This document shows, in pieces, positions 1 to 45,903 of a stretch of 64,000 nt of DNA. Within the stretch, counting starts at the first letter, position 1; the number at the start of each line of letters is the position of its first letter. The notes beneath the pieces are model-generated. The model ran no database searches, was not told the DNA's origin, and worked only from the letters and a program-made list of their open reading frames with translations. The DNA comes from Escherichia phage heid. The DNA lies in the sequence record MN850577.1; one strand, 5' to 3'. The position numbers were made by a program, and so were the translations under genes.

Positions 1-1228
1 ATCTTTACAGACCTTATCTCACAAGGTCTAACACGGTACTAACAAGGTATCTTATAAGCCTGTTATTACCTGTATTTTTAAAAGACTGTCTAGGTAATTA
101 TTCAGAATCTTAAAATTTTTATAAAATAGGACTATCAAGTCATTTTTTAGGGTCTTTGAAGGAACTGAAAAATATCTGTAGAAGATGTATATCTGCTTGG
201 TAGCCCTTAACAACTCCCTTACAAGTACTTTGCAAAATTTTAAAATATCCTTAACAATTTCTTAACAACTCTCTCAAGCTCTTAACAACCCTTCAAAGGT
301 CTTAACAGATTCTTAACAGAACTAACAAGGCTGTAACAGTTTTCTAGGGATTGGTAACAATACCAATTAACAAGTGCTGAATAGGCTTTACAGAATCTTA
401 ACAGATGACTAACAAGAGCTAACAAGTTAATTTTAAAGAGTTATTTTGTTAAGATAATTAACAAGTCTCTAACAAGTGTTTAATCTTTTTAACAAGCTAT
501 TAACATGGTCACTATCTCTTGGTCTATAGTTCCCTTTCCCTCTTAGTGATTCTTTAAACATACCTCTTAAAAGCTCTCTATAGCTCTTTATAAGCTCTTT
601 TAAGTCTCTTCCTAGTAGTTACACCCCAACTATACAGAAAGCTCTTTATAGGGCTTTACAGGAGCTTTTAAGGCTATGTCAAAGGCTCTTACAAGGTTTT
701 TACATGGTCTTAACAGAGATTTAACAAGGGGCTAACAAGTTGCTAACAAGTGCCTTAAAAGCATAACTATGTAGGGTTTGTTAAGAAATTGTTAAGAAAT
801 TGTTAAGAAAATGTTAAGGGGGCTAGCATTTACGTAACTTTTAAGCTACTTTATAGCCCCTATAACATACTTTTAAGACACTAACAAGCCCTTTTTAGAT
901 ATTCACAAGATAGCTAACGAGATGATAAAGCTTACACCCTTATAAGATTCTTTTAAGGCTGTAGGAAGCTTTATAAAGAGCTTTTAAGGGTGAGTTAATG
1001 CAATCCCTTAAGTTAGGTTGATAAGGCTGTTATAGAGCTTTATAGAGCGTTTAAACGGTTGCCCTTCCCTTTCGGGTTATGGGCTTTTATTTAAGTTGAT
1101 TTGATAAGAGATTATAGAGTAGACTATAGAGTTATTGCTTTTAAGGTCTGGTAAGATTCTATCGAATCAGTAGGGTAGATTCTGGAAAGGAAAGGAAAGG
1201 GATTGTATAGAGGTTATTACATAGACGT
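1..1228. repeat. Non-coding A+T-rich region packed with short repeats: over 25 copies of CTTAACA(A/G)/CTAACAAG, often phased at about 11 bp, a tandem GTTAAGAAATT x3 at 779-818, and recurring AGCTCTTTATA and CTTTTAAGG motifs
   Basis: Read directly from sequence; no ORF of 60 aa or more on either strand; lies just 3' of the early-array terminator. Confidence 0.6.
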
Positions 1229-1282
1229 AAAAAAAGCCCCTATGAGAAGGAGCTTTGCAGGTATCTGGGGCTATTTAGCCCC
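1229..1282 (-). terminator. Probable intrinsic terminator ending the early gene array
   Basis: GC-rich inverted repeats (AGCCCC 1235-1240, GGGGCT 1267-1272, AGCCCC 1277-1282) followed on the minus strand by a U7 run (plus A-run 1229-1235), just after the stop of ORF 1293-1541. Confidence 0.45.
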
Positions 1283-1292
1283 GTTGCGTCGA

Positions 1293-1541
1293 TTAGTTGT
1301 AACCTTGTTTATTGTAGTACAGTGAGATAATCAAGTCACCCCAGTAATGATAGTGATGCTCGTCGTTTAATGCCTCTTTTACAGCGTCTTTCCAGAAGTC
1401 ATCAGTAGGGTTATAATCTGGGATAACTTGCTTGATAACTGTCTTCACTAATGAAAAGCATTCATCAGTTCCACCGATATCAAATTTAACGTCCAGAGTA
1501 TAACAGCCATAAGCATTGACAGTTGCGCGGATAGTTGCCAT
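1293..1541 (-). CDS. Hypothetical small early protein (82 aa)
   Basis: ORF with AGGAG Shine-Dalgarno 8 nt upstream and conserved family A promoter/UTR element. Confidence 0.55.
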   Translation of the reverse strand: MATIRATVNAYGCYTLDVKFDIGGTDECFSLVKTVIKQVIPDYNPTDDFWKDAVKEALNDEHHYHYWGDLIISLYYNKQGYN

Positions 1542-1636
1542 TTTTTGAATCTCCTAGTTTAAGGACTTTACTTAGTGGGGAAGGTCATTCCCTCCCCGTT
1601 GATTAGTAATTTACTGCATGTTGGCGTATGTTGCAA
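1542..1636 (-). promoter_or_regulatory. Family A early promoter/5' UTR element: -35 TTGCAA (1631-1636), 17-bp spacer, -10 TAAATT (1608-1613), stem-loop 1577-1597, SD AGGAG
   Basis: Seven copies of a conserved ~70-bp element; the -10 contains the stop codon of the upstream gene; hairpin with conserved core and covarying stem. Confidence 0.55.
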
Positions 1637-1874
1637 GCCTTTTTTCGTTGTATTTTGTCAGAATCTCACAAGATAAAACATCATATTTTGTAACCGCTTT
1701 GCCTTTGTCGAGGTCAAAGAATCCGAACGCTTTACCATCTTTGAATCCGACAACTTCGTAAGATTCTTTGATGATTTCACCATTGAACAAATCACTTTCG
1801 ATACGGTGAAATAATGCTACATCTTCTTTGTCGGTTGCAATTTGTAAAAGTGTGGTTAATTCTACGTTTTCCAT
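1611..1874 (-). CDS. Hypothetical small early protein (87 aa)
   Basis: ORF preceded by family A element. Confidence 0.55.
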   Translation of the reverse strand: MENVELTTLLQIATDKEDVALFHRIESDLFNGEIIKESYEVVGFKDGKAFGFFDLDKGKAVTKYDVLSCEILTKYNEKRLATYANMQ

Positions 1875-1963
1875 CTTGATGCCCCTAGTTTAAGGATTTT
1901 ATTGAGTGGGGGAGGTCATCCCCCGTTAATGAGTAATTTACAGATTTTTGATTGTCTCGTCAA
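1875..1963 (-). promoter_or_regulatory. Family A early promoter/5' UTR element: -35 TTGACG (1958-1963), 17 bp, -10 TAAATT (1935-1940), stem-loop 1908-1924
   Basis: Conserved element; the -10 overlaps the upstream stop codon; stem GGGGGA/TCCCCC. Confidence 0.55.
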
Positions 1964-2468
1964 TGTCTTTTTCAATATCTTTTAAAGTTTTTTCTAAGTT
2001 CTTGATATTGAAAGATAAACCCTCTCCCAATGTTTTGCTGTAACCACTAGGGCGCAAGTCATGCAGTTCGATTTCTTCCACTTCGAAGAGACTAACCAAC
2101 TCACCGCTTACACTGTAAGCCATTGAAACAGTATTTACAGGGGCTTTATAGAACTTGTTTAAGGACTTGATAGAACGCTCATAAGCCATTTTATAACCGT
2201 TTAAAAGGTCTTTAACGTGGTTGCGAACGTTTTTACACTCATCTAAGTAAATCCCTAAGAATAGCGGTAATAACTCTGCTACAGCTTGCATAAAGTGAGA
2301 GACTACAACGGTTGCAACATTACGACGATGTACATAATAAGCCCCATTTTCTGATTTAGTGATGGTTGCAAAGTGTACCCCATTGCAGCGAAATTCGTAG
2401 GTATCTTTAACAGGCTTAGCCATTACAGCATTTGAACGAATGTAGTTGATAGCTTGAAATTTGTTCAT
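1938..2468 (-). CDS. Hypothetical early protein (about 176 aa; ATG at 2468 preferred over the track's longer start)
   Basis: Conserved SD plus ATG context shared with the other early genes. Confidence 0.5.
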   Translation of the reverse strand: MNKFQAINYIRSNAVMAKPVKDTYEFRCNGVHFATITKSENGAYYVHRRNVATVVVSHFMQAVAELLPLFLGIYLDECKNVRNHVKDLLNGYKMAYERSIKSLNKFYKAPVNTVSMAYSVSGELVSLFEVEEIELHDLRPSGYSKTLGEGLSFNIKNLEKTLKDIEKDIDETIKNL

Positions 2469-2560
2469 TTTTGAATCTCCTAGTTTAAGGACTTTATTTA
2501 GTGGGGAGGTCATTACCTCCCGTTGATTAGTAATTTACTTGTTTTGATATCTGATTGCAA
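2469..2560 (-). promoter_or_regulatory. Family A early promoter/5' UTR element: -35 TTGCAA (2555-2560), 17 bp, -10 TAAATT (2532-2537), stem-loop 2503-2521
   Basis: Conserved element; stem variant GGAGGT/ACCTCC. Confidence 0.5.
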
Positions 2561-2628
2561 GCAATTTTTTAAGTTTATCTATAAAGAATCTTTTAAGTTA
2601 ATCCCTTTTAGATAAACCCCCTCGAACA

Positions 2629-2657
2629 AATCTACCAATGTCAAGGGGCGTTGTCAA
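2629..2657 (-). promoter_or_regulatory. Additional sigma70-like promoter: TTGACA, 17 bp, TAGATT
   Basis: Hexamers and spacing read from sequence in the 150-bp non-coding gap 2541-2689. Confidence 0.4.
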
Positions 2658-2689
2658 TACTTTTTTGAAAGTTTTTTGTAAGTTATTGA

Positions 2690-3031
2690 TTAACTGATGA
2701 ATATTTTTTCAGGTTTTACATAGCTGATACGCTGACTTTTTAGCAGGTCATCCCAGATTAACGCGGCGATATGGGCATAACCGGATTCACGTAAAAGCTT
2801 CATTGTTTTACTTCTCGTTTCAAAACGGCTTGCGTAGTACTCACTATTTAAAACCGTTTTATTCCCTTCGTTATCTACATGGATAATCTGCATCACTTGA
2901 AAGGGGCTTGTGTCCTCGCCTTTGTTCCACTGTTCAAAGTATTTTAGGCACTGCATAGGTGACATCTTATCACTTACTTGAGTTGACCAAGATGAATTTT
3001 CTTTATCGGTAATTACGGTTACATAAGCCAT
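2690..3031 (-). CDS. Hypothetical early protein (113 aa)
   Basis: ORF with family A element upstream. Confidence 0.5.
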   Translation of the reverse strand: MAYVTVITDKENSSWSTQVSDKMSPMQCLKYFEQWNKGEDTSPFQVMQIIHVDNEGNKTVLNSEYYASRFETRSKTMKLLRESGYAHIAALIWDDLLKSQRISYVKPEKIFIS

Positions 3032-3125
3032 TTTTGAATCTCCTAGTTTAAGGATTGTACTTAGTGGGGAAGGTCATTCCCTCCCCGTTGATTGACAATT
3101 TACAGATTTTTATCAGGCTTGTCTA
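3032..3125 (-). promoter_or_regulatory. Family A early promoter/5' UTR element: -35 TAGACA (3120-3125), 17 bp, -10 TAAATT (3097-3102), stem-loop 3066-3086
   Basis: Conserved element; the -35 overlaps the stop codon of ORF 3123-3356. Confidence 0.5.
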
Positions 3126-3356
3126 GTCTTTTTCAATGATAATTTCATACTGACCATCTACGCTGTCAAAATAGATACCGTCTTCATCTTCTGTCTTAAA
3201 GTAACATTGTATATCATCACTAGCGGGATAGTCTTGTCTTGCTATCTGACAGACCTGAACAGCATTTTCTTTACTTCCTGTAAACTCCTCAAGCCCTTTA
3301 AAATCACATGAATGACCATTACAAATAGAAAGGATAAGATAAACGGTTGTAAGCAT
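3123..3356 (-). CDS. Small protein with hydrophobic N-terminus and cysteines (77 aa), possibly secreted or a lipoprotein
   Basis: N-terminal LILSICNG resembles a signal/lipobox; SD AAGAGG. Confidence 0.4.
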   Translation of the reverse strand: MLTTVYLILSICNGHSCDFKGLEEFTGSKENAVQVCQIARQDYPASDDIQCYFKTEDEDGIYFDSVDGQYEIIIEKD

Positions 3357-3369
3357 GATTTAAGCCTCT

Positions 3370-3390
3370 TAAAAGCCCCTGTGAGGGGCT
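3370..3390 (-). terminator. Intrinsic terminator-like hairpin
   Basis: AGCCCC-TGTGA-GGGGCT followed on the minus strand by UUUU, between ORFs 3423-3965 and 3123-3356. Confidence 0.4.
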
Positions 3391-3422
3391 AATCAGTGTT
3401 TATAAGGTGATTGCATAGGTTT

Positions 3423-3965
3423 TTAGAAAAAGCTCTTTAAATCTCTCTCTGTGATGTTTCCCGCTAGTGTATCCATGATGTCACAAAAAACCTGAATACT
3501 ATCCGACTGTTGAATACTTTTAGCAAGAAGCTCCAGAGACTCATCAAGATAATTTAAATTTGGGTTATCCAATGAAGGAAGACAAAAAGGCGAAAACATC
3601 GCATTAAACTCGGTTACGTAAACCTTTTTAATCCAATTTAAATCGAAGTATTCTGTAAAACTTGCTACGCCAGACATATTATCACAAGAATAATCATCAT
3701 TCAGGTCATCCTCTGGGATATCAAGTTCTAAGATAACAATATTTTGGGTTTTCATCTGGAAAGCGGCCGTAATAGTGGCATTACCTAACGCTTGCTGGAT
3801 GCCTTCGGCTGTTATCTCTTTCTCATCGTCGCCATAGATTTTATTTTCTGGATACACGTAAAAATTGCCGTCCATGTCCGAACAATTCCATGCACCTGAT
3901 GGCTTGTCACCGTTATTAATCAGGTTGAGGAAATTTTCTTGAGTAGTACCGTGAAAGCATTTCAT
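3423..3965 (-). CDS. Acidic hypothetical early protein (180 aa)
   Basis: ORF; strongly acidic composition; N-terminal HGT and YVY motifs of unknown meaning. Confidence 0.5.
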   Translation of the reverse strand: MKCFHGTTQENFLNLINNGDKPSGAWNCSDMDGNFYVYPENKIYGDDEKEITAEGIQQALGNATITAAFQMKTQNIVILELDIPEDDLNDDYSCDNMSGVASFTEYFDLNWIKKVYVTEFNAMFSPFCLPSLDNPNLNYLDESLELLAKSIQQSDSIQVFCDIMDTLAGNITERDLKSFF

Positions 3966-4055
3966 TTTTGAATCTCCAGTTTAGGATTTAGTGGTAAAGC
4001 TCTTTATCTGGGGCTTACTTTATCGAACTATAAGCCCCTTGTAAAGTACTTTATT
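3966..4055 (-). promoter_or_regulatory. Family B intergenic element: 16-bp near-palindrome TGTAAAGTACTTTAT containing -35 TTTACA and the upstream stop codon, GC hairpin 4010-4038, -10 TAAAGT, SD
   Basis: Four near-identical copies of about 90 bp; -35/-10 spacing 17-18 bp. Confidence 0.45.
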
Positions 4056-4254
4056 TGTTATTTTTTACTACTTTTAAAACCGCACGATAGCCTAAGCAAT
4101 AGGAATCACCGAAGAGCGACCGACCCATGAAGGAGTCCTCTGTAATATCTTTCGCCGTGACGGTTTTTTCTACGCCGTGAAAGAGAACTACATCACCGAC
4201 TTTAATATCTTTGATGTGTGTAGTTTCAATGGTTAAACCGTTAATAATAGCCAT
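4051..4254 (-). CDS. Hypothetical small early protein (67 aa)
   Basis: ORF with family A element upstream. Confidence 0.5.
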   Translation of the reverse strand: MAIINGLTIETTHIKDIKVGDVVLFHGVEKTVTAKDITEDSFMGRSLFGDSYCLGYRAVLKVVKNNK

Positions 4255-4346
4255 TTTTGAATCTCCAGTTTAGGACTTTATTTAGTGGGGAAGGTCATTC
4301 CCGCCCCGTTGATGTGTAATTTAATCTATCTGAAAACCAATGTCAA
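4255..4346 (-). promoter_or_regulatory. Family A early promoter/5' UTR element: -35 TTGACA (4341-4346), 17 bp, -10 TAAATT (4318-4323), stem-loop 4287-4307; A-tract upstream of -35
   Basis: Hexamers and spacing read from sequence; T12 run at 4347-4360. Confidence 0.55.
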
Positions 4347-4360
4347 CAATTTTTTTTTTT

Positions 4361-4765
4361 TTAGAGTTCTGCATAAATTGCATCACAGATACCACGAAAA
4401 TCATGATTTGTCAAATTACGTTGTAACCAAGTGGCGAAAAAGTCAGCGATTGCAAAGTTAGCGTCATACTCGACAGATAGCCACACTTTAACAGCAAACC
4501 GAAACATTTTCAAATCAAGCTCTTTATTCATTACCTTAGATTTGCCTAACATGTCGGACATTTCATATTGTGCACCGTCTAGCGTGATACCTGCTGCAAC
4601 GTCAGCCAATGAGTTTTTTACGTTTTCAACGTCTAAGATAACGCTTTGAATCTTCCCAATAATGTTGTGCAATGTTTCGTCCGGTGCTGATGACGTAATA
4701 ACATTAATCCGGTTAACGGTCAAACGTGCTTTTAAGATTGATAACTCGCGATTATTAATAGCCAT
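4361..4765 (-). CDS. Hypothetical early protein (about 134 aa; ATG at 4765, the track start is a TTG)
   Basis: SD GGAGAA 7 nt before ATG. Confidence 0.5.
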   Translation of the reverse strand: MAINNRELSILKARLTVNRINVITSSAPDETLHNIIGKIQSVILDVENVKNSLADVAAGITLDGAQYEMSDMLGKSKVMNKELDLKMFRFAVKVWLSVEYDANFAIADFFATWLQRNLTNHDFRGICDAIYAEL

Positions 4766-4856
4766 TTTTAAGTTCTCCAATTTAGGATTTAGTGGTAAAG
4801 CTCTTTATCTGGGGCTTACTTTATCGAACTATAAGCCCCTTGTAAAGTACTTTATA
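4766..4856 (-). promoter_or_regulatory. Family B intergenic element (palindrome 4841-4856 containing stop codon 4852-4854, hairpin 4811-4839)
   Basis: Conserved repeat copy. Confidence 0.45.
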
Positions 4857-5124
4857 CTAAATGCAGCTTTTTACCTTTTACTATGATGTAACTCGATGCG
4901 CTATTGCTTTGCACATCCTGATAAATTCTGCGCAAACGGCCTTCGTAGTATACTTTCCAACTGGTTGGAATCTTTTTCCCGTATCCTGTAGCAGTTTTTT
5001 GTAGTCCTGCAAGTTGCCAATCTAAGATATGTTGTTCGGCTTGTAAATCCTCGAAGTGCATTACACCGTTCACATAGTGACGAAGGGTTACGTTTAAGGT
5101 GCGACCGTTGTTAGTAGTATACAT
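4852..5124 (-). CDS. Hypothetical small early protein (90 aa)
   Basis: ORF with family A element upstream. Confidence 0.5.
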   Translation of the reverse strand: MYTTNNGRTLNVTLRHYVNGVMHFEDLQAEQHILDWQLAGLQKTATGYGKKIPTSWKVYYEGRLRRIYQDVQSNSASSYIIVKGKKLHLV

Positions 5125-5215
5125 TTTGAATCTCCTAGTTTAAGGACTTTGTTTAGTGGGGAGGTCATTACCTCCCGTTGATTAGTAATTTACTTGTTTT
5201 AAAAACCAAAATCAA
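5125..5215 (-). promoter_or_regulatory. Family A early promoter/5' UTR element: -35 TTGATT (5210-5215), 17 bp, -10 TAAATT (5187-5192), stem-loop 5157-5176
   Basis: Conserved element; the -35 overlaps the upstream stop codon. Confidence 0.5.
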
Positions 5216-5544
5216 GAGAAATTTTTTCGTTTGCTCAATTCTTGAACAATTACAGCGTAGTAGTCTTTTAAGTCACTGACATTTAAAGCATTTATCAGAG
5301 AATTATAATCATCGACTAACTGAAAATCATCTTTGAAAATGTCGCTGATTTGATAAGTTTTTGATTGAAATCTGAAGCTCATTTCTAACCGTTTTATTTG
5401 TTCATCACTTAAACGCTCCAGAAAGCTCATTACAAGGCTATTATTGACCTGTTGCGTGATTGCCTTATTTGCTAGATTATAGGCTTTATATGCCTTATAT
5501 AGCGCGAAAATGGCAATGATTGCAGTGATACCAGTCATTAACAT
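5212..5544 (-). CDS. Small membrane-anchored protein (110 aa)
   Basis: N-terminal hydrophobic segment MLMTGITAIIAIFALY; SD AGAGGAAA. Confidence 0.5.
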   Translation of the reverse strand: MLMTGITAIIAIFALYKAYKAYNLANKAITQQVNNSLVMSFLERLSDEQIKRLEMSFRFQSKTYQISDIFKDDFQLVDDYNSLINALNVSDLKDYYAVIVQELSKRKNFS

Positions 5545-5834
5545 GGTGTTTCCTCTTTACGTGATACTTTGCCATTTACAGTTATCTCATAAGAATCTAG
5601 TAAGTCACTTTTAGATTTTACTGGACTTTTAAAAGTATCATCATAAATATTTACTTGCAATACAGGTTTTTTATACTCCCTGCAACTATTCCATAAACAA
5701 ATCACTACACGACGGCCTTTTATTTTACCGTGCAACCATTCCATAACATCATGATTATTTCTTGATGTCTCGATAAAATCAATTTTGTTGAGTAACTTGC
5801 TTAGATTTTCACGAACTTTATTGGATAATTTCAT
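5538..5834 (-). CDS. Hypothetical small early protein (98 aa)
   Basis: ORF with conserved SD context. Confidence 0.5.
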   Translation of the reverse strand: MKLSNKVRENLSKLLNKIDFIETSRNNHDVMEWLHGKIKGRRVVICLWNSCREYKKPVLQVNIYDDTFKSPVKSKSDLLDSYEITVNGKVSRKEETPC

Positions 5835-5926
5835 TTTTGAGTCTCCTAGTTTAAGGGTTAATTTGATAAAGCTCTTTATCTGGGGCTTAAGATATCAACT
5901 TTTAAGCCCCTTGTAAAGTACTTTAT
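5835..5926 (-). promoter_or_regulatory. Family B intergenic element (hairpin 5882-5910 with stem GGGGCTTAA/TTAAGCCCC and a different loop; palindrome 5911-5926)
   Basis: Stem conserved while the loop differs from the other copies. Confidence 0.45.
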
Positions 5927-6183
5927 CAGATTAAATTGCCAGTTAATGATAAGTGCATTTTGTAACCTTGTTTAGTGAATACGTTCACTTTACCGAGTGT
6001 TTTTACACCTTTAAAAAGGTTATTTGAACTGCGTTTTAAGGTTAAATGTTTATCAGCCTTCACGCCCCACCTTACATTAGATTGTTTTCCGTTGTCAACC
6101 ACTTTCCCGCATAACTTTTTAGCCATAACGCGAGCGTCATCACGAGTTTTTGCAGCAATTACAACGTTTTTGATAATAGCCAT
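5926..6183 (-). CDS. Basic hypothetical small protein (about 85 aa; ATG at 6183)
   Basis: ORF; same SD context as 4361-4765. Confidence 0.5.
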   Translation of the reverse strand: MAIIKNVVIAAKTRDDARVMAKKLCGKVVDNGKQSNVRWGVKADKHLTLKRSSNNLFKGVKTLGKVNVFTKQGYKMHLSLTGNLI

Positions 6184-6273
6184 TTTTAAGTTCTCCAATT
6201 TAGGATTTAGTGGTAAAGCTCTTTATCTGGGGCTTACTTTATCGAACTATAAGCCCCTTGTAAAGTACTTTAT
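6184..6273 (-). promoter_or_regulatory. Family B intergenic element (hairpin 6229-6257, palindrome 6258-6273 containing stop codon 6270-6272)
   Basis: Conserved repeat copy. Confidence 0.45.
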
Positions 6274-37033: not shown

Positions 37034-37290
37034 GTAAGCCTCTTTTAAGTAACTATTAAGTTTTAATCTTTTATCTTAACGTATTCTATACGTTATACTT
37101 TAAAGCTTTTTAAAAGCTATTAAATAATCTTTTAAGAGTTTTAAAGTATCTGTATAGTTAAACTGTTAAGTAACCTTTTAAGTAAAAACCCACTTCGCAA
37201 AGATTAACACCTTGTCAAGTACATTGTCAACTTGCTTTTTATAATTTTTTGCAGTAATGTATGAGGTTAATGATTTTAGAGGGAGTAAAA
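37034..37290. promoter_or_regulatory. AT-rich divergent intergenic region at the strand switch, with repeated CTTTTAAG motifs and TTGTCAA/TTGACAA elements
   Basis: 257 bp non-coding between the divergent operons; motifs read directly. Confidence 0.4.
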
Positions 37291-45398: not shown

Positions 45399-45611
45399 AT
45401 GGCTCTTAAAAAGTTACATCCCAGAAGCGGTTATGGTAAGATAATTGACGATACAGACGGCTTTACAGTCTTTACAGTTATCTGTCAAGATGATTCACAG
45501 ATTGAAAAGGCTCTTGACGATTATCTTAACGATGAACGTGAAAAGGTCAGGGCTACTAACATAGACTCATTAATTGATACTTCACGCAAACGGAAGAAGA
45601 AAGATGAATGA
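45399..45611 (+). CDS. Hypothetical protein (70 aa)
   Basis: ORF. Confidence 0.4.
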   Translation: MALKKLHPRSGYGKIIDDTDGFTVFTVICQDDSQIEKALDDYLNDEREKVRATNIDSLIDTSRKRKKKDE

Positions 45612-45903
45612 GGTTTTTGACCCTTATGCCCCACAAGATGATTGGGAGGCTGATAGAGAGGCTGAAATGGAGAGTTATATTTGTCCAATGGATGTAGACG
45701 AAATGAGAGACTTCGTTGCACATCGTTTTAAGAGAGAGATTAAATCCAGAGGTCTTTCTCAAGAGCAAGTTGCTAAAATTTGTGGTATCTCTCAGGCTCG
45801 TGTGTCCAACATAATTCATCTCACTGGTAATGTCTCCCTTGAGTATATGTTGGAAGTATGTGAAAAATTTGGTGTTAATTTTAATTTAAGGTTGGCAGAT
45901 TAA
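45604..45903 (+). CDS. HTH (XRE-like) DNA-binding protein (about 99 aa)
   Basis: LSQEQVAKICGISQARVSNIIH helix-turn-helix pattern. Confidence 0.5.
   Translation: MNEVFDPYAPQDDWEADREAEMESYICPMDVDEMRDFVAHRFKREIKSRGLSQEQVAKICGISQARVSNIIHLTGNVSLEYMLEVCEKFGVNFNLRLAD

What the first reader, a model, noticed from the sequence alone, without database searches (positions are those of the whole stretch)
1..1228. A 1.2-kb non-coding region saturated with phased TTAACA repeats
The region has no ORF of 60 aa or more and contains over 25 copies of CTTAACA(A/G)/CTAACAAG, many spaced about 11 bp apart (one helical turn), plus an opposite-orientation tandem GTTAAGAAATT x3 (779-818) and recurring AGCTCTTTATA and CTTTTAAGG motifs that also appear in the early intergenic elements and the 37034-37290 strand-switch region. 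Phased short repeats are typical of replication origins, partition or packaging sites, or arrays of binding sites that titrate a DNA-binding protein. It lies just beyond the terminator of the early array and may be near a genome end.
Basis: seen in the sequence. Interest (0 to 1): 0.6.

Follow-up and report, generated by a model that had tools for sequence, protein, structure and literature searches.

The report
Phage genome-end repeat with phased TAACA arrays
This non-coding stretch holds the roughly 625-bp direct terminal repeat of a Felix O1-like phage, where replicated DNA is cut for packaging, and it is built of short TAACA motifs spaced one DNA turn apart; the terminal repeat is already known for this genus, the motif lattice is apparently undescribed.

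Summary
TAACA occurs 25 times on the + strand and 7 times on the - strand in 1-1228, against 2.5 +/- 1.5 in shuffles. Ten of 24 neighbour spacings are exactly 11 bp.

The window is a Felixounavirus. Window 199-823 aligns to the direct terminal repeat (DTR) mapped experimentally in phage UAB_Phi87. Four independent GenBank records start or end exactly at 199 and at 823. The finding is therefore the concatemer junction, meaning the physical genome ends.

Both DTR boundaries carry TAGCCC(CC)TTAACA in inverted orientation. A 10-11-bp periodicity runs through about 1.06 kb here, and through the whole ~1.65-kb gap in relatives. TAACA enrichment persists in Kolesnikvirus and Pectobacterium phage Arno18, where the sequence is otherwise almost unalignable. 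Motif bases are more conserved than spacers.

Best reading: a terminus-generation and packaging-recognition region. An unidentified protein would bind the phased motifs, and nicks at the two inverted boundary sites would allow the DTR to be duplicated. That mechanism is inferred, not shown.

Origin, promoter-decoy and end-protection roles are not excluded. The closest tested analogue is the T7 junction (CCTAAAG x13). I judge it a new member of a known kind, of moderate interest.

The parts
1..198 (.). Left flank of the terminal repeat. It is unique sequence between the last late gene, which lies upstream of the window, and the left terminus. It still shows the 10-11-bp periodicity, has TAACA at 29 and 40, and has an AT-rich stretch at about 89-135.
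   Evidence: Autocorrelation peaks at lag 11 (40%). Relatives carry about 400 further non-coding bases upstream with more CTTAACA/CTAACAAG units.
187..212 (+). Left DTR boundary element GTATATCTGCTT|GGTAGCCCTTAACA. The physical end lies at 198/199, or at 196/197 in the two UAB phages.
   Evidence: The Pr103Blw, HP1, NBEco004 and D4 records start or end at window 199. The boundary sequence is conserved in 12 genomes of 4 genera. The Kolesnikvirus vEam_W_25 record ends 1 nt from the aligned position and is followed by Illumina adapter.
199..823 (.). Direct terminal repeat (DTR), about 625 bp in this phage. It is present once per concatemer junction and at both ends of virion DNA.
   Evidence: Aligned to the annotated DTRs of Pr103Blw (581 bp, PhageTerm), HP1 (570 bp) and UAB_69. 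It is 90% identical to the run-off-sequenced DTR of UAB_Phi87 (PMC4837284, Fig. S1). The other ends of NBEco004 and D4 fall at window 823.
206..505 (+). Left array: 17 TAACA cores, consensus (C)YTAACA(A/G)G, all pointing inward from the left terminus and phased at about 10.3 bp.
   Evidence: Motif columns are 0.91 conserved against 0.76 for spacers. The per-position profile is 0.88-0.94 on TAACA against 0.68-0.82 around it.
218..246 (+). Candidate sigma-70 promoter (CTTACA-N17-TAAAAT here, TTAACA-N17-TAAAAT in fjerdesal), 20-48 bp inside the left terminus and firing inward. The -35 is itself one of the repeat units. This is inferred only.
   Evidence: Consensus scan. The block TTTGCAAAATTTTAAAATATC keeps the same geometry in all genera, including Kolesnikvirus and Arno18.
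346..368 (.). A 22-23-bp palindromic insert, GGGATTGGTAACAATACCAATT, absent at this position in most relatives.
   Evidence: Alignment gap. The same element sits at another position in UAB_69 and occurs twice in IME338.
446..464 (.). Head-to-head motif pair TTGTTAA-GATAA-TTAACAA, a perfect 7-bp inverted repeat.
   Evidence: Sequence. The block 441-460 is 100% conserved in 12 genomes.
521..700 (+). Central part of the DTR, made of degenerate variants of the same 10-11-bp unit (CTCTTTATAG, GCTTTACAGG, GCTTTTAAGG, CTCTTACAAGG).
   Evidence: TRF arrays at 560-610. Autocorrelation at lags 10-12 is 39-41%.
709..750 (+). Four units at exactly 11-bp spacing, with TAACA at 711, 722, 733 and 744.
   Evidence: Lag-11 identity is 61% in 701-823.
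778..818 (-). Four inverted units (TTGTTAAGAAA, period 11) pointing inward from the right terminus. Relatives have three.
   Evidence: TRF 778-818, 3.7 copies, 96% matches. An 11-bp unit gap appears in the alignment.
812..826 (-). Right DTR boundary element. On the - strand it reads TAGCCCCCTTAACA, an inverted copy of the left boundary element. The physical end is at 823/824, or 815-825 by other determinations.
   Evidence: Positions 801-840 are 0.95-0.96 conserved. Only three TAGCC(C)nT(A)TAACA elements exist in 64 kb: 201 (+), 825 (-) and 854 (+).
803..876 (.). A 23-nt inverted repeat (arms 803-825 and 854-876, 78% complementary, 28-nt spacer) straddling the right terminus. Its second arm carries the third TAGCCCC-TATAACA copy.
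   Evidence: the repeat finder I13. As single-stranded DNA it folds at -9.1 kcal/mol, z = -1.7, which is weak. GCCCCTATAACATACT is invariant in 5 genomes.
824..1060 (.). Right flank, built of TTATAG/TTTAAG-type units at the same 10-11-bp period, with a fully conserved block at 941-960.
   Evidence: Autocorrelation is 41% at lags 11 and 21.
1061..1092 (+). Conserved hairpin GCCCTTCCCTTTCGGGTTATGGGC followed by TTTTATTT. It looks like a weak + strand terminator that would stop transcription coming out of the DTR.
   Evidence: 100% conserved in 12 genomes. Fold energy is -11.6 kcal/mol, z = -1.2. It was not picked up by the strict terminator scan.
1233..1283 (-). Terminator hairpins closing the - strand array of small genes. 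They mark the right limit of the non-coding gap.
   Evidence: Terminator scan. Fold energy is -23.5 kcal/mol, z = -3.6.

Best explanation
SHOWN: The region is the concatemer junction of a Felix O1-like myophage. Window 199-823 is the short direct terminal repeat, and its two boundaries are the physical ends of virion DNA. The boundaries carry the same element, TAGCCC(CC)TTAACA, in inverted orientation. The whole non-coding gap is a degenerate lattice of 10-11-bp units whose conserved core is TAACA. These cores point inward from each terminus and lie on one face of the helix.

INFERRED: The lattice is the assembly platform for the machinery that generates the termini and starts packaging. A still unidentified sequence-specific protein, doing the job of a small terminase or recognition subunit, would bind the phased TAACA cores cooperatively and bend or wrap the junction DNA. 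This would position a nuclease at the two inverted boundary elements; the candidates are the T4-type large terminase or a partner nickase. The nuclease would nick opposite strands just 5' of each element, about 625 bp apart. Strand-displacement synthesis from the two 3' ends would then give each daughter genome a full copy of the repeat, as in the classical Watson model proposed for T7. A conserved sigma-70-like promoter just inside the left end, and a weak terminator at 1061-1092, suggest the repeat is also transcribed. That transcription could assist genome entry or junction processing.
For: Identity and context:
- The window is a Felixounavirus; 219 phage records cover at least 80% of the region.
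- The gap lies between convergent late and small-gene arrays.

DTR mapping:
- Annotated DTRs of Pr103Blw, HP1 and UAB_69 map to window 199-823 or 197-825.
- Bal31 digestion plus run-off sequencing defined a 608-bp DTR in UAB_Phi87 (PMC4837284). The published sequence aligns to window 197-815 at 90% identity.
- Six records break at window 199/200.
- NBEco004 and D4 have their other end at 823.
- A Kolesnikvirus record shows adapter read-through 1 nt from the aligned left terminus.

Inverted boundary elements:
- They are conserved in three genera.
- Only three such elements occur in 64 kb, all at the boundaries.

Motif statistics, phasing and conservation:
- TAACA is 25 observed against 2.5 in shuffles.
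- Rayleigh R is 0.61 at 10.3 bp.
- The lag-11 autocorrelation peak runs across 1-1060 and across the gaps of all genera.
- TAACA bases are conserved at 0.88-0.94 against 0.68-0.82 for neighbouring bases. Only 1.4% of circular shifts reach the observed difference.
- Enrichment persists in Kolesnikvirus (20+11 copies in 1441 bp) and Arno18 (8+14), although only 3-10% of the query aligns there.

Analogue: the T7 junction has 13 CCTAAAG copies in and around its 160-bp repeat, with 13-bp spacing in the runs just right of the repeat.
Against: - No small terminase or other recognition subunit is recognisable. The ORF upstream of TerL is a 66-aa acidic protein, and a Pharokka-annotated complete genome lists only a large terminase.
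- The only recognisable HTH protein (window 45574-45903) is not detectable in Kolesnikvirus or Pectobacterium phages, which keep the array.
- The lattice spans about 1.65 kb in relatives, which from general knowledge is much longer than typical terminase recognition sites.
- The two cut positions are not exactly symmetric relative to the shared element. They are offset by 2-4 nt, and different determinations of the right end differ by up to 10 nt.
- No binding, nicking or packaging data exist.
- The DTR of this particular phage is inferred from homologues, not from its own reads.
Confidence: 0.55

Rival explanations
1. The lattice is an array of -35-like promoter decoys or a promoter cluster at the entering genome end. 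TTAACA is 5/6 of the sigma-70 -35 hexamer, and the phage's own early promoters use TTGACA or TTTACA within CTTTACAAGG. The array would recruit or titrate host RNA polymerase, or a phage factor that reads this element. The purpose would be to pull the genome in by transcription or to time the early-to-middle switch.
For: - A conserved TTAACA/CTTACA-N17-TAAAAT candidate promoter lies 20-48 bp from the left end.
- Early intergenic cassettes contain TTGACA-N17-TAAATT or CTTTACAAGGGGCTTA...TAAAGT, and they share CTTTACAAG and AAAGAGCTTTA strings with the terminal units.
- A + strand terminator-like hairpin at 1061-1092 is 100% conserved.
- T7 also has host promoters close to its left end: A0 at 224, inside its repeat array, and A1-A3 at 498-750.
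Against: - Only one or two of the 32 cores have a -10-like hexamer at the right distance.
- This reading does not explain the inverted copies at the right boundary, nor the coincidence of the boundary elements with the cut sites.
- It is unknown which end enters the cell first.
Confidence: 0.15
2. The region is a replication origin. The phased repeats would be iterons for a phage initiator, next to AT-rich DNA that melts.
For: - The first kilobase is AT-rich (32.7% GC against 36-44% in most other 1-kb windows).
- There are direct phased repeats with 85% AT stretches at 89-135 and 420-466.
- Conservation extends across the subfamily.
- In T7, replication-associated promoters phiOL and phiOR sit next to the ends.
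Against: - The unit is 10-11 bp and the array runs for more than 1 kb here; from general knowledge, classical origins have a few 17-22-bp iterons.
- The adjacent ORFs have no recognisable initiator, helicase-loader or DNA-binding domain.
- There is no exact DnaA box and no exact IHF site.
- GC skew simply follows transcription direction.
- The coincidence with the mapped termini is explained without invoking an origin.
Confidence: 0.12
3. The lattice is an end-protection or end-anchoring site. An injected or early protein would coat the repeated motifs at both genome ends, to shield them from RecBCD or to tether them, either in the capsid and portal or for recombination between terminal repeats that builds concatemers.
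For: - The motifs are concentrated at, and point inward from, both physical ends.
- The one-face phasing suits a cooperative coat.
- The lattice extends beyond the repeat on both sides.
Against: No candidate protein was found. From general knowledge, end protection by known phage proteins (T4 gp2, Mu Gam) is not sequence-specific, so a conserved motif would not be needed. This reading also does not explain the identical elements exactly at the cut sites.
Confidence: 0.08
4. The array is a functionless degenerate minisatellite produced by replication slippage in dispensable spacer DNA around the terminal repeat.
For: Unit-number variation occurs, with 4 against 3 TGTTAAG units. Small palindromic indels move about between strains.
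Against: - The TAACA core is more conserved than the spacers.
- The core is kept in genera where the surrounding sequence no longer aligns.
- The orientation pattern relative to the termini is conserved.
- Several 20-bp blocks are 100% conserved.
Confidence: 0.05

Closest known systems
Direct terminal repeat of Felixounavirus phages (UAB_Phi87, 608 bp, mapped by Bal31 and run-off sequencing; Pr103Blw, 581 bp, by PhageTerm)
   Same: It is the homologous DNA segment, about 90% identical, in the same position between the late genes and the small-gene array, and with the same boundary sequences.
   Different: The published work reports only the length and sequence of the repeat. In the papers I read I found no description of the phased TAACA lattice, its extension into both flanks, the inverted boundary elements or their conservation across the subfamily. 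The Felix O1 genome paper lists only direct repeats of 24 bp or more, and all of them lie elsewhere.
Phage T7 concatemer junction: a 160-bp terminal repeat with flanking short-repeat arrays (SRL/SRR in my recollection of Dunn and Studier 1983)
   Same: Both are non-coding junctions holding a short exact terminal repeat. In both, one short motif is repeated many times in one orientation inside the repeat and on both sides of it. In T7 this is CCTAAAG x13, from -106 to +332 relative to the repeat start (tested; autocorrelation peak at lag 13). Host-type promoters lie close to the left end.
   Different: - The motif differs, and the period is 13 bp in T7 against 10-11 bp here.
- The T7 array is about 0.4 kb, against about 1.65 kb for the gap in relatives here.
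- I noticed no inverted copy of the array at the right boundary of the T7 repeat, but did not search for one.
- The large terminase here is T4-type (Terminase_6N/6C).
- No phage RNA polymerase is annotated here. To my knowledge T7 junction processing involves T7 RNA polymerase pausing.
- To my knowledge the role of the T7 repeats is itself unsettled.
Terminase recognition sites built of repeated elements: P1 pac (seven TGATC(A/G) hexamers flanking the cut), lambda cosB (R sites for gpNu1 plus IHF) and SPP1 pacL/pacR. This comparison is from my own knowledge and was not tested here.
   Same: Short repeated motifs cluster on both sides of the cleavage position. Their phasing is compatible with a bent or wrapped nucleoprotein complex.
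   Different: Those sites are roughly 100-250 bp with 3-7 elements, and each has an identified small terminase. Here there are at least 32 cores over more than 1 kb and no recognisable small terminase. P1 uses Dam-methylated GATC, whereas this window has no GATC at all.
Iteron-type replication origins (lambda ori, plasmid oriV)
   Same: Both have direct repeats in helical phase within AT-rich non-coding DNA.
   Different: The unit length is 10-11 bp against about 17-22 bp. The copy number and extent are far larger here. There is no adjacent initiator gene and no DnaA box. The region also coincides with the genome termini.

Membership tests
Short exact direct terminal repeat (DTR) of Ounavirinae virion DNA | Homology to a terminal repeat whose ends were mapped experimentally | tested here: met
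   The UAB_Phi87 DTR (Bal31 plus run-off sequencing; PMC4837284, Fig. S1) aligns to window 197-815 at 90% identity. The UAB_69 DTR feature maps to 197-825.
Short exact direct terminal repeat (DTR) of Ounavirinae virion DNA | Independent genome records begin and end at the two boundaries and carry the segment at both ends | tested here: met
   Six records break at window 199/200, each with two matching places in the record. Pr103Blw and HP1 repeat features map to 199-823. The NBEco004 end and the D4 start fall at window 823.
Short exact direct terminal repeat (DTR) of Ounavirinae virion DNA | Doubled read coverage and fixed read starts at the boundaries in this phage itself | not testable with these tools
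   No reads are available. The window holds a single copy of the segment, and its own source record is unknown.
Terminase recognition site with repeated binding elements (cosB / pac type) | Repeated short elements flanking the cleavage position or positions | tested here: met
   TAACA cores begin 9 bp inside the left end (208) and 7 bp inside the right end (812-816), and continue on both sides of each end.
Terminase recognition site with repeated binding elements (cosB / pac type) | A small terminase or recognition subunit encoded with the large terminase | tested here: not met
   The ORF upstream of TerL is 66 aa, acidic and has no significant domain. Neighbouring ORFs are DUF7217 and DUF7338. 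The Pharokka-annotated genome D4 lists only a large terminase.
Terminase recognition site with repeated binding elements (cosB / pac type) | Terminase binds the repeats, and the site is sufficient for cutting or packaging | not testable with these tools
   This needs EMSA or footprinting and a plasmid-packaging assay.
T7-type concatemer junction | A short terminal repeat in a non-coding junction, with one short motif repeated within it and on both sides | tested here: met
   For this window. The T7 control gives CCTAAAG x13 around its 160-bp repeat.
T7-type concatemer junction | T7-type packaging and processing machinery (gp18/gp19-type terminase and phage RNA polymerase acting at the junction) | tested here: not met
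   TerL matches T4-type Terminase_6N/6C. No RNA polymerase or gp18-like protein is annotated in a complete relative.
Iteron-type replication origin | A few iterons of about 17-22 bp with an adjacent initiator gene | tested here: not met
   The repeat unit is 10-11 bp and there are dozens of copies. The ten flanking ORFs match only families of unknown function.
Iteron-type replication origin | DnaA boxes or IHF sites and an AT-rich unwinding element | tested here: inconclusive
   There is no exact DnaA box (four scattered one-mismatch hits) and no exact IHF consensus. Two stretches of 85% AT exist.
Known structured RNA (Rfam) | Match to a covariance model | tested here: not met
   No match at E up to 1 in 1-1700 on either strand.

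The most novel reading that the evidence does not exclude
Felix O1-like phages have no recognisable small terminase. In this reading they mark their genome ends with a lattice of TAACA sites more than 1 kb long, phased at one helical turn. An unknown protein would coat or wrap this lattice and direct two opposite-strand nicks to inverted TAGCCC-TTAACA elements about 625 bp apart, and the terminal repeat would then be duplicated by strand displacement. This would give a sequence-defined, directly testable case of how short exact terminal repeats are generated outside the T7 group, and it would expose a new class of terminus-recognition protein.
Probability: 0.3. Interest if true: 0.6.

Novelty: new member of a known kind. 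Interest (0 to 1): 0.4.

Why it matters
To my knowledge, how phages with short exact terminal repeats recognise and duplicate their ends is worked out in any detail only for T7 and T3, and incompletely even there. Felix O1-like phages are widely used for Salmonella and E. coli typing, biocontrol and therapy. Their terminal repeat has been recorded only as a length.

Three findings here give concrete, mutable targets for packaging, transduction and engineering studies:
- Both ends carry the same inverted element.
- The whole junction is a conserved lattice of TAACA sites phased at one helical turn.
- No recognition subunit is identifiable.

The boundaries (window 199 and 823) also give a simple rule for orienting and trimming Ounavirinae assemblies. 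Many of these are deposited permuted, marked as circular, or with assembly leftovers.

Tried and rejected
- Rfam scan of 1-1700 on both strands at E up to 1: no match.
- E. coli complete genomes searched with 150-900: no match, so the DNA is not host-derived.
- PHROGs and Pfam on ten ORFs flanking the gap: only families of unknown function.
- Search for a small terminase next to TerL in fjerdesal: the candidates were a 66-aa acidic ORF, DUF7217 and DUF7338, none informative. The full Pharokka annotation of phage D4 has no small terminase.
- The single recognisable HTH protein (window 45574-45903, HTH_3) was considered as the TAACA binder. tblastn finds it in Felixounavirus, Mooglevirus and Suspvirus but not in Erwinia or Pectobacterium phages that keep the array. 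It is therefore unlikely to be the common binder.
- DnaA-box, IHF and GATC scans: nothing specific.
- Hairpin folding at the two boundaries: weak at the right (z = -1.7) and none at the left.
- Right DTR boundary in Kolesnikvirus: I tried to define it from the vEam_W_25 record, which has a 401-bp end duplication. That record's start coincides with a 12-bp internal inverted repeat and may be an assembly artefact, so only its adapter-tagged end was used.
- Literature searches for a description of these repeats, a Felix O1 origin, or transcript maps: nothing beyond DTR lengths.
- A generic pattern search for the boundary element was badly designed and uninformative. It was replaced by a regex count.
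Full report
**1. What is in the sequence**

Window 1-1228 has no ORF of 60 aa or more. The longest is 53 aa with a TTG start, and no + strand ORF of 30 aa or more lies in 1-1200.

The pentamer TAACA occurs 25 times on the + strand and 7 times on the - strand. In the remaining 62.8 kb it occurs about 1.5 times per kb per strand. One thousand dinucleotide-preserving shuffles of the region give 2.5 +/- 1.5 copies, with a maximum of 8. An unbiased k-mer comparison with the rest of the window puts TAACA, TAACAA, TAACAAG and CTAACAAG at the top (p from 1e-17 to 1e-20). The extended consensus is (C)YTAACA(A/G)G.

Of 24 neighbour spacings, ten are exactly 11 bp and six are 19-21 bp. Pairwise distances up to 70 bp give a Rayleigh R of 0.61 at a period of 10.3 bp. 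TRF confirms the opposite-orientation array at 778-818: period 11, 3.7 copies, 96% matches.

The periodicity is not limited to the exact TAACA copies. Sequence autocorrelation peaks at lags 10-11, 20-22 and 31-32 in every sub-segment from 1 to 1060, reaching 40-61% identity at lag 11. Three coding controls give 26-29%. For example, 638-762 reads as about eleven consecutive units.

No other part of the window has such a cluster.

**2. What the region is**

The window is a Felixounavirus, a Felix O1-like myophage. The region matches 255 phage records, and 219 of them cover at least 80% of it. The best match is Escherichia phage fjerdesal at 95%.

In annotated relatives the region is the larger part of a non-coding gap of about 1.65 kb. 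The gap lies between the 3' end of a + strand late block (tail protein, lysin) and the 3' end of a long - strand array of small genes. The window starts about 400 bp into that gap.

The decisive evidence came from the distant BLAST listing. Six records from different laboratories start or end at query position 199/200, and each holds the segment twice. Three records annotate a terminal repeat here:
- Pr103Blw, 581 bp, by PhageTerm.
- Mooglevirus HP1, 570 bp.
- UAB_69, 'DTR'.

Through a multiple alignment these features map to window 199-823, or 197-825 for UAB_69.

For UAB_Phi87 the ends were determined experimentally by Bal31 digestion and run-off sequencing, giving 608 bp (PMC4837284). The repeat sequence printed in that paper's Figure S1 aligns to window 197-815 at 90% identity.

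The opposite ends of two further records fall at window 823. NBEco004 ends ...GAAAATGTTAAAGGGGC, and D4 begins GCCCCCTTAACATTTTC.

A Kolesnikvirus record, Erwinia phage vEam_W_25, ends ...GAGAAGCGGCCAC followed by nine bases of Illumina adapter. That places a physical end 1 nt from the aligned Felix O1-type left terminus.

The finding is therefore the concatemer junction. It contains the direct terminal repeat, about 625 bp in this phage, plus its two flanks. The assignment for this particular phage rests on homology, not on its own reads.

**3. Anatomy**

The left boundary reads ...GTATATCTGCTT|GGTAGCCCTTAACA. The right boundary reads ...TGTTAAGGGGGC|TAGCATTTACG. Read from the right end inward on the other strand, it is GCTA|GCCCCCTTAACATTTTCTTAACA. 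Both virion ends therefore begin, 5' to 3', with G..GCCC(CC)TTAACA followed by further TTAACA units.

The element TAGCC(C)nT(A)TAACA occurs only three times in 64 kb: at 201 (+), 825 (-) and 854 (+). The third copy forms a 23-nt inverted repeat with the second, straddling the right end. The boundary elements are conserved in Felixounavirus, Mooglevirus and Suspvirus. The latter two have TAGCCCTAAACA and TAGCCCCCTTTACA.

Inside the repeat:
- 17 + oriented cores fill 206-505.
- A fully conserved head-to-head pair, TTGTTAA-GATAA-TTAACAA, sits at 446-464.
- The centre, 521-700, holds degenerate units.
- Four units at exactly 11 bp (709-750) face four inverted units (778-818).

The lattice continues into both flanks.

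A sigma-70-like promoter, (C)TTAACA/CTTACA-N17-TAAAAT, lies 20-48 bp inside the left end. The block TTTGCAAAATTTTAAAATATC and its geometry are kept in all genera. A hairpin plus T-run at 1061-1092 is 100% conserved but only weakly stable. Strong - strand terminators at 1233-1283 close the gap.

**4. Evidence for function of the motif**

In a 12-genome alignment covering three genera (80-98% identity to the window), TAACA columns of the left array are 0.91 conserved against 0.76 for spacers. The position-specific profile is 0.88-0.94 on T-A-A-C-A and 0.68-0.82 around it. Only 1.4% of circular shifts of the motif mask reach the observed difference. One caveat applies: aligners favour aligning repeat copies.

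An alignment-free argument points the same way. In Kolesnikvirus (phiEa21-4, SE5) and in Pectobacterium phage Arno18 only 3-10% of the query aligns. Yet the syntenic non-coding gap holds 20+11 and 8+14 TAACA/TGTTA copies, against 6+5 in the flanking 3.6 kb. These copies show + oriented units on the left, - oriented units at 11-bp spacing on the right, and the same 10-12-bp autocorrelation.

The core, its phasing and its orientation relative to the ends are therefore under selection across the subfamily.

**5. How it most likely works**

The following is shown:
- The position of the termini.
- The inverted boundary elements.
- The phased, conserved lattice.

The following is inferred. A sequence-specific protein binds the cores on one face of the helix and organises the junction. 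A nuclease nicks opposite strands just 5' of each boundary element. Strand-displacement synthesis from the two 3' ends then gives each daughter a full repeat. This is the Watson model proposed for T7, cited here from my own knowledge. The apparent blunt ends seen in sequencing libraries correspond to 5' ends, which is what this model predicts at 199 (top strand) and 823 (bottom strand).

There are four weak points:
- No small terminase is recognisable.
- The only recognisable HTH protein is absent from the distant genera that keep the array.
- The cut positions are 2-4 nt off perfect symmetry, and determinations of the right end vary from 815 to 825.
- The lattice is far longer than known terminase sites.

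**6. Rivals**

(a) Promoter decoys or transcription-driven entry. TTAACA is 5/6 of the -35 hexamer, and the phage's early intergenic cassettes use TTGACA-N17-TAAATT or CTTTACAAGG...TAAAGT, sharing strings with the terminal units. However, only one or two cores have a -10 partner.

(b) Replication origin. The DNA is AT-rich and has phased repeats. Against this, the units are 10-11 bp, there is no adjacent initiator, there is no exact DnaA or IHF site, and the skew only follows transcription.

(c) End protection or anchoring. There is no candidate protein, and from general knowledge known end-protection proteins do not need a specific sequence.

(d) Slippage junk. This is contradicted by the conservation pattern, although unit-number changes and small mobile palindromes show that slippage does occur.

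**7. Comparison with known systems**

The segment is a member of the Felixounavirus terminal-repeat family, by homology and by matching boundaries.

In architecture it is closest to the T7 concatemer junction. I checked T7 directly: CCTAAAG occurs 13 times from -106 to +332 around the 160-bp repeat, with 13-bp spacing in the runs just right of the repeat and host promoters nearby.

It differs from T7 in motif, period (10-11 bp against 13 bp), extent, terminase type (T4-like Terminase_6N/6C) and the absence of an annotated phage RNA polymerase. I noticed no inverted right-boundary array in the T7 sequence, but did not search for one.

P1 pac, lambda cosB and SPP1 pac are functional analogies from my own knowledge. 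They were not tested here. The defining small-terminase feature was tested and not met, so the claim is 'works like', not 'is a member of'.

**8. Novelty and score**

The terminal repeat of this genus is already known (2016 onward). The papers I could read give only its length and sequence, and the Felix O1 genome paper lists no repeats in this region. GenBank 'repeat_region' features in some records mark only fragments.

The following appear undescribed:
- The phased lattice.
- Its extension beyond the repeat.
- The inverted boundary elements.
- The subfamily-wide conservation.

They fit a known kind of element, so I classify this as a new member of a known kind, with interest 0.4. The literature search was limited to open-access text, so an earlier description cannot be excluded.

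Noticed in passing
window 1-64000: GATC is completely absent: 0 observed against 227 expected from a trinucleotide Markov model. The next most avoided 4-bp palindromes are CCGG (0.46) and GGCC (0.53). The absence of MboI/GATC sites has already been reported for the genus, in the VpaE1 and Alf5 papers.
   Followed up: yes
window 346-368; L004 2905-2922; L014 1905-1922 and 2627-2644: A 22-23-bp palindromic element (GGGATTGGTAACAATACCAATT) sits at different positions inside the terminal-repeat region in different strains, and is absent there in most relatives. It looks like a small mobile or recombining palindrome. A second, GATTC...GAATC-type palindromic indel varies around window 1152-1180.
   Followed up: partly
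window 1541-6270, - strand intergenic regions: The small-gene array uses two recurring intergenic cassettes. One is TTGACA-N17-TAAATT followed by a 5' stem-loop (CAACGGGGAGGGAATGACCTTCCCCAC) and a conserved RBS region. The other is CTTTACAAGGGGCTTA..TAAAGTAAGCCCC, with a promoter-like pair embedded in a hairpin, followed by AGATAAAGAGCTTTACC. These correspond to the 39-bp and 57-bp repeats listed in the Felix O1 paper.
   Followed up: partly
window 37034-37260: The divergent strand-switch region is very AT-rich and carries CTTTTAAG three times (37042, 37129, 37175), plus TTGTCAAG/TTGTCAAC promoter-like hexamers. There is no TAACA array here.
   Followed up: partly
L010 (PP079183.1, Erwinia phage vEam_W_25) record end: The GenBank record ends with 9 nt of Illumina adapter (AGATCGGAA) directly after the physical genome end. 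It also carries a 401-bp exact duplication of its start. This looks like an assembly leftover that happens to mark a true terminus.
   Followed up: yes
window 778-818 and 1160-1220: Unit slippage: the window has four TGTTAAG units where relatives have three. Positions 1160-1220, including (GGAAA)3.4 at 1184-1200, form the least conserved part of the gap, at 0.44-0.68.
   Followed up: no
window 45574-45903 (+): This is the only recognisable sequence-specific DNA-binding protein found: an XRE/HTH_3 protein of 99-109 aa in the DNA-metabolism block. It is conserved in Felixounavirus, Mooglevirus and Suspvirus but is not detected in Kolesnikvirus.
   Followed up: partly
several GenBank records of the genus (e.g. 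NBEco004, BPS17S6, IME338): Some records are deposited as circular or permuted, and some annotate 26-50-aa 'hypothetical proteins' inside the non-coding terminal region. Examples are UAB69_gp027 and gp028 and a 45-aa CDS in D4.
   Followed up: no
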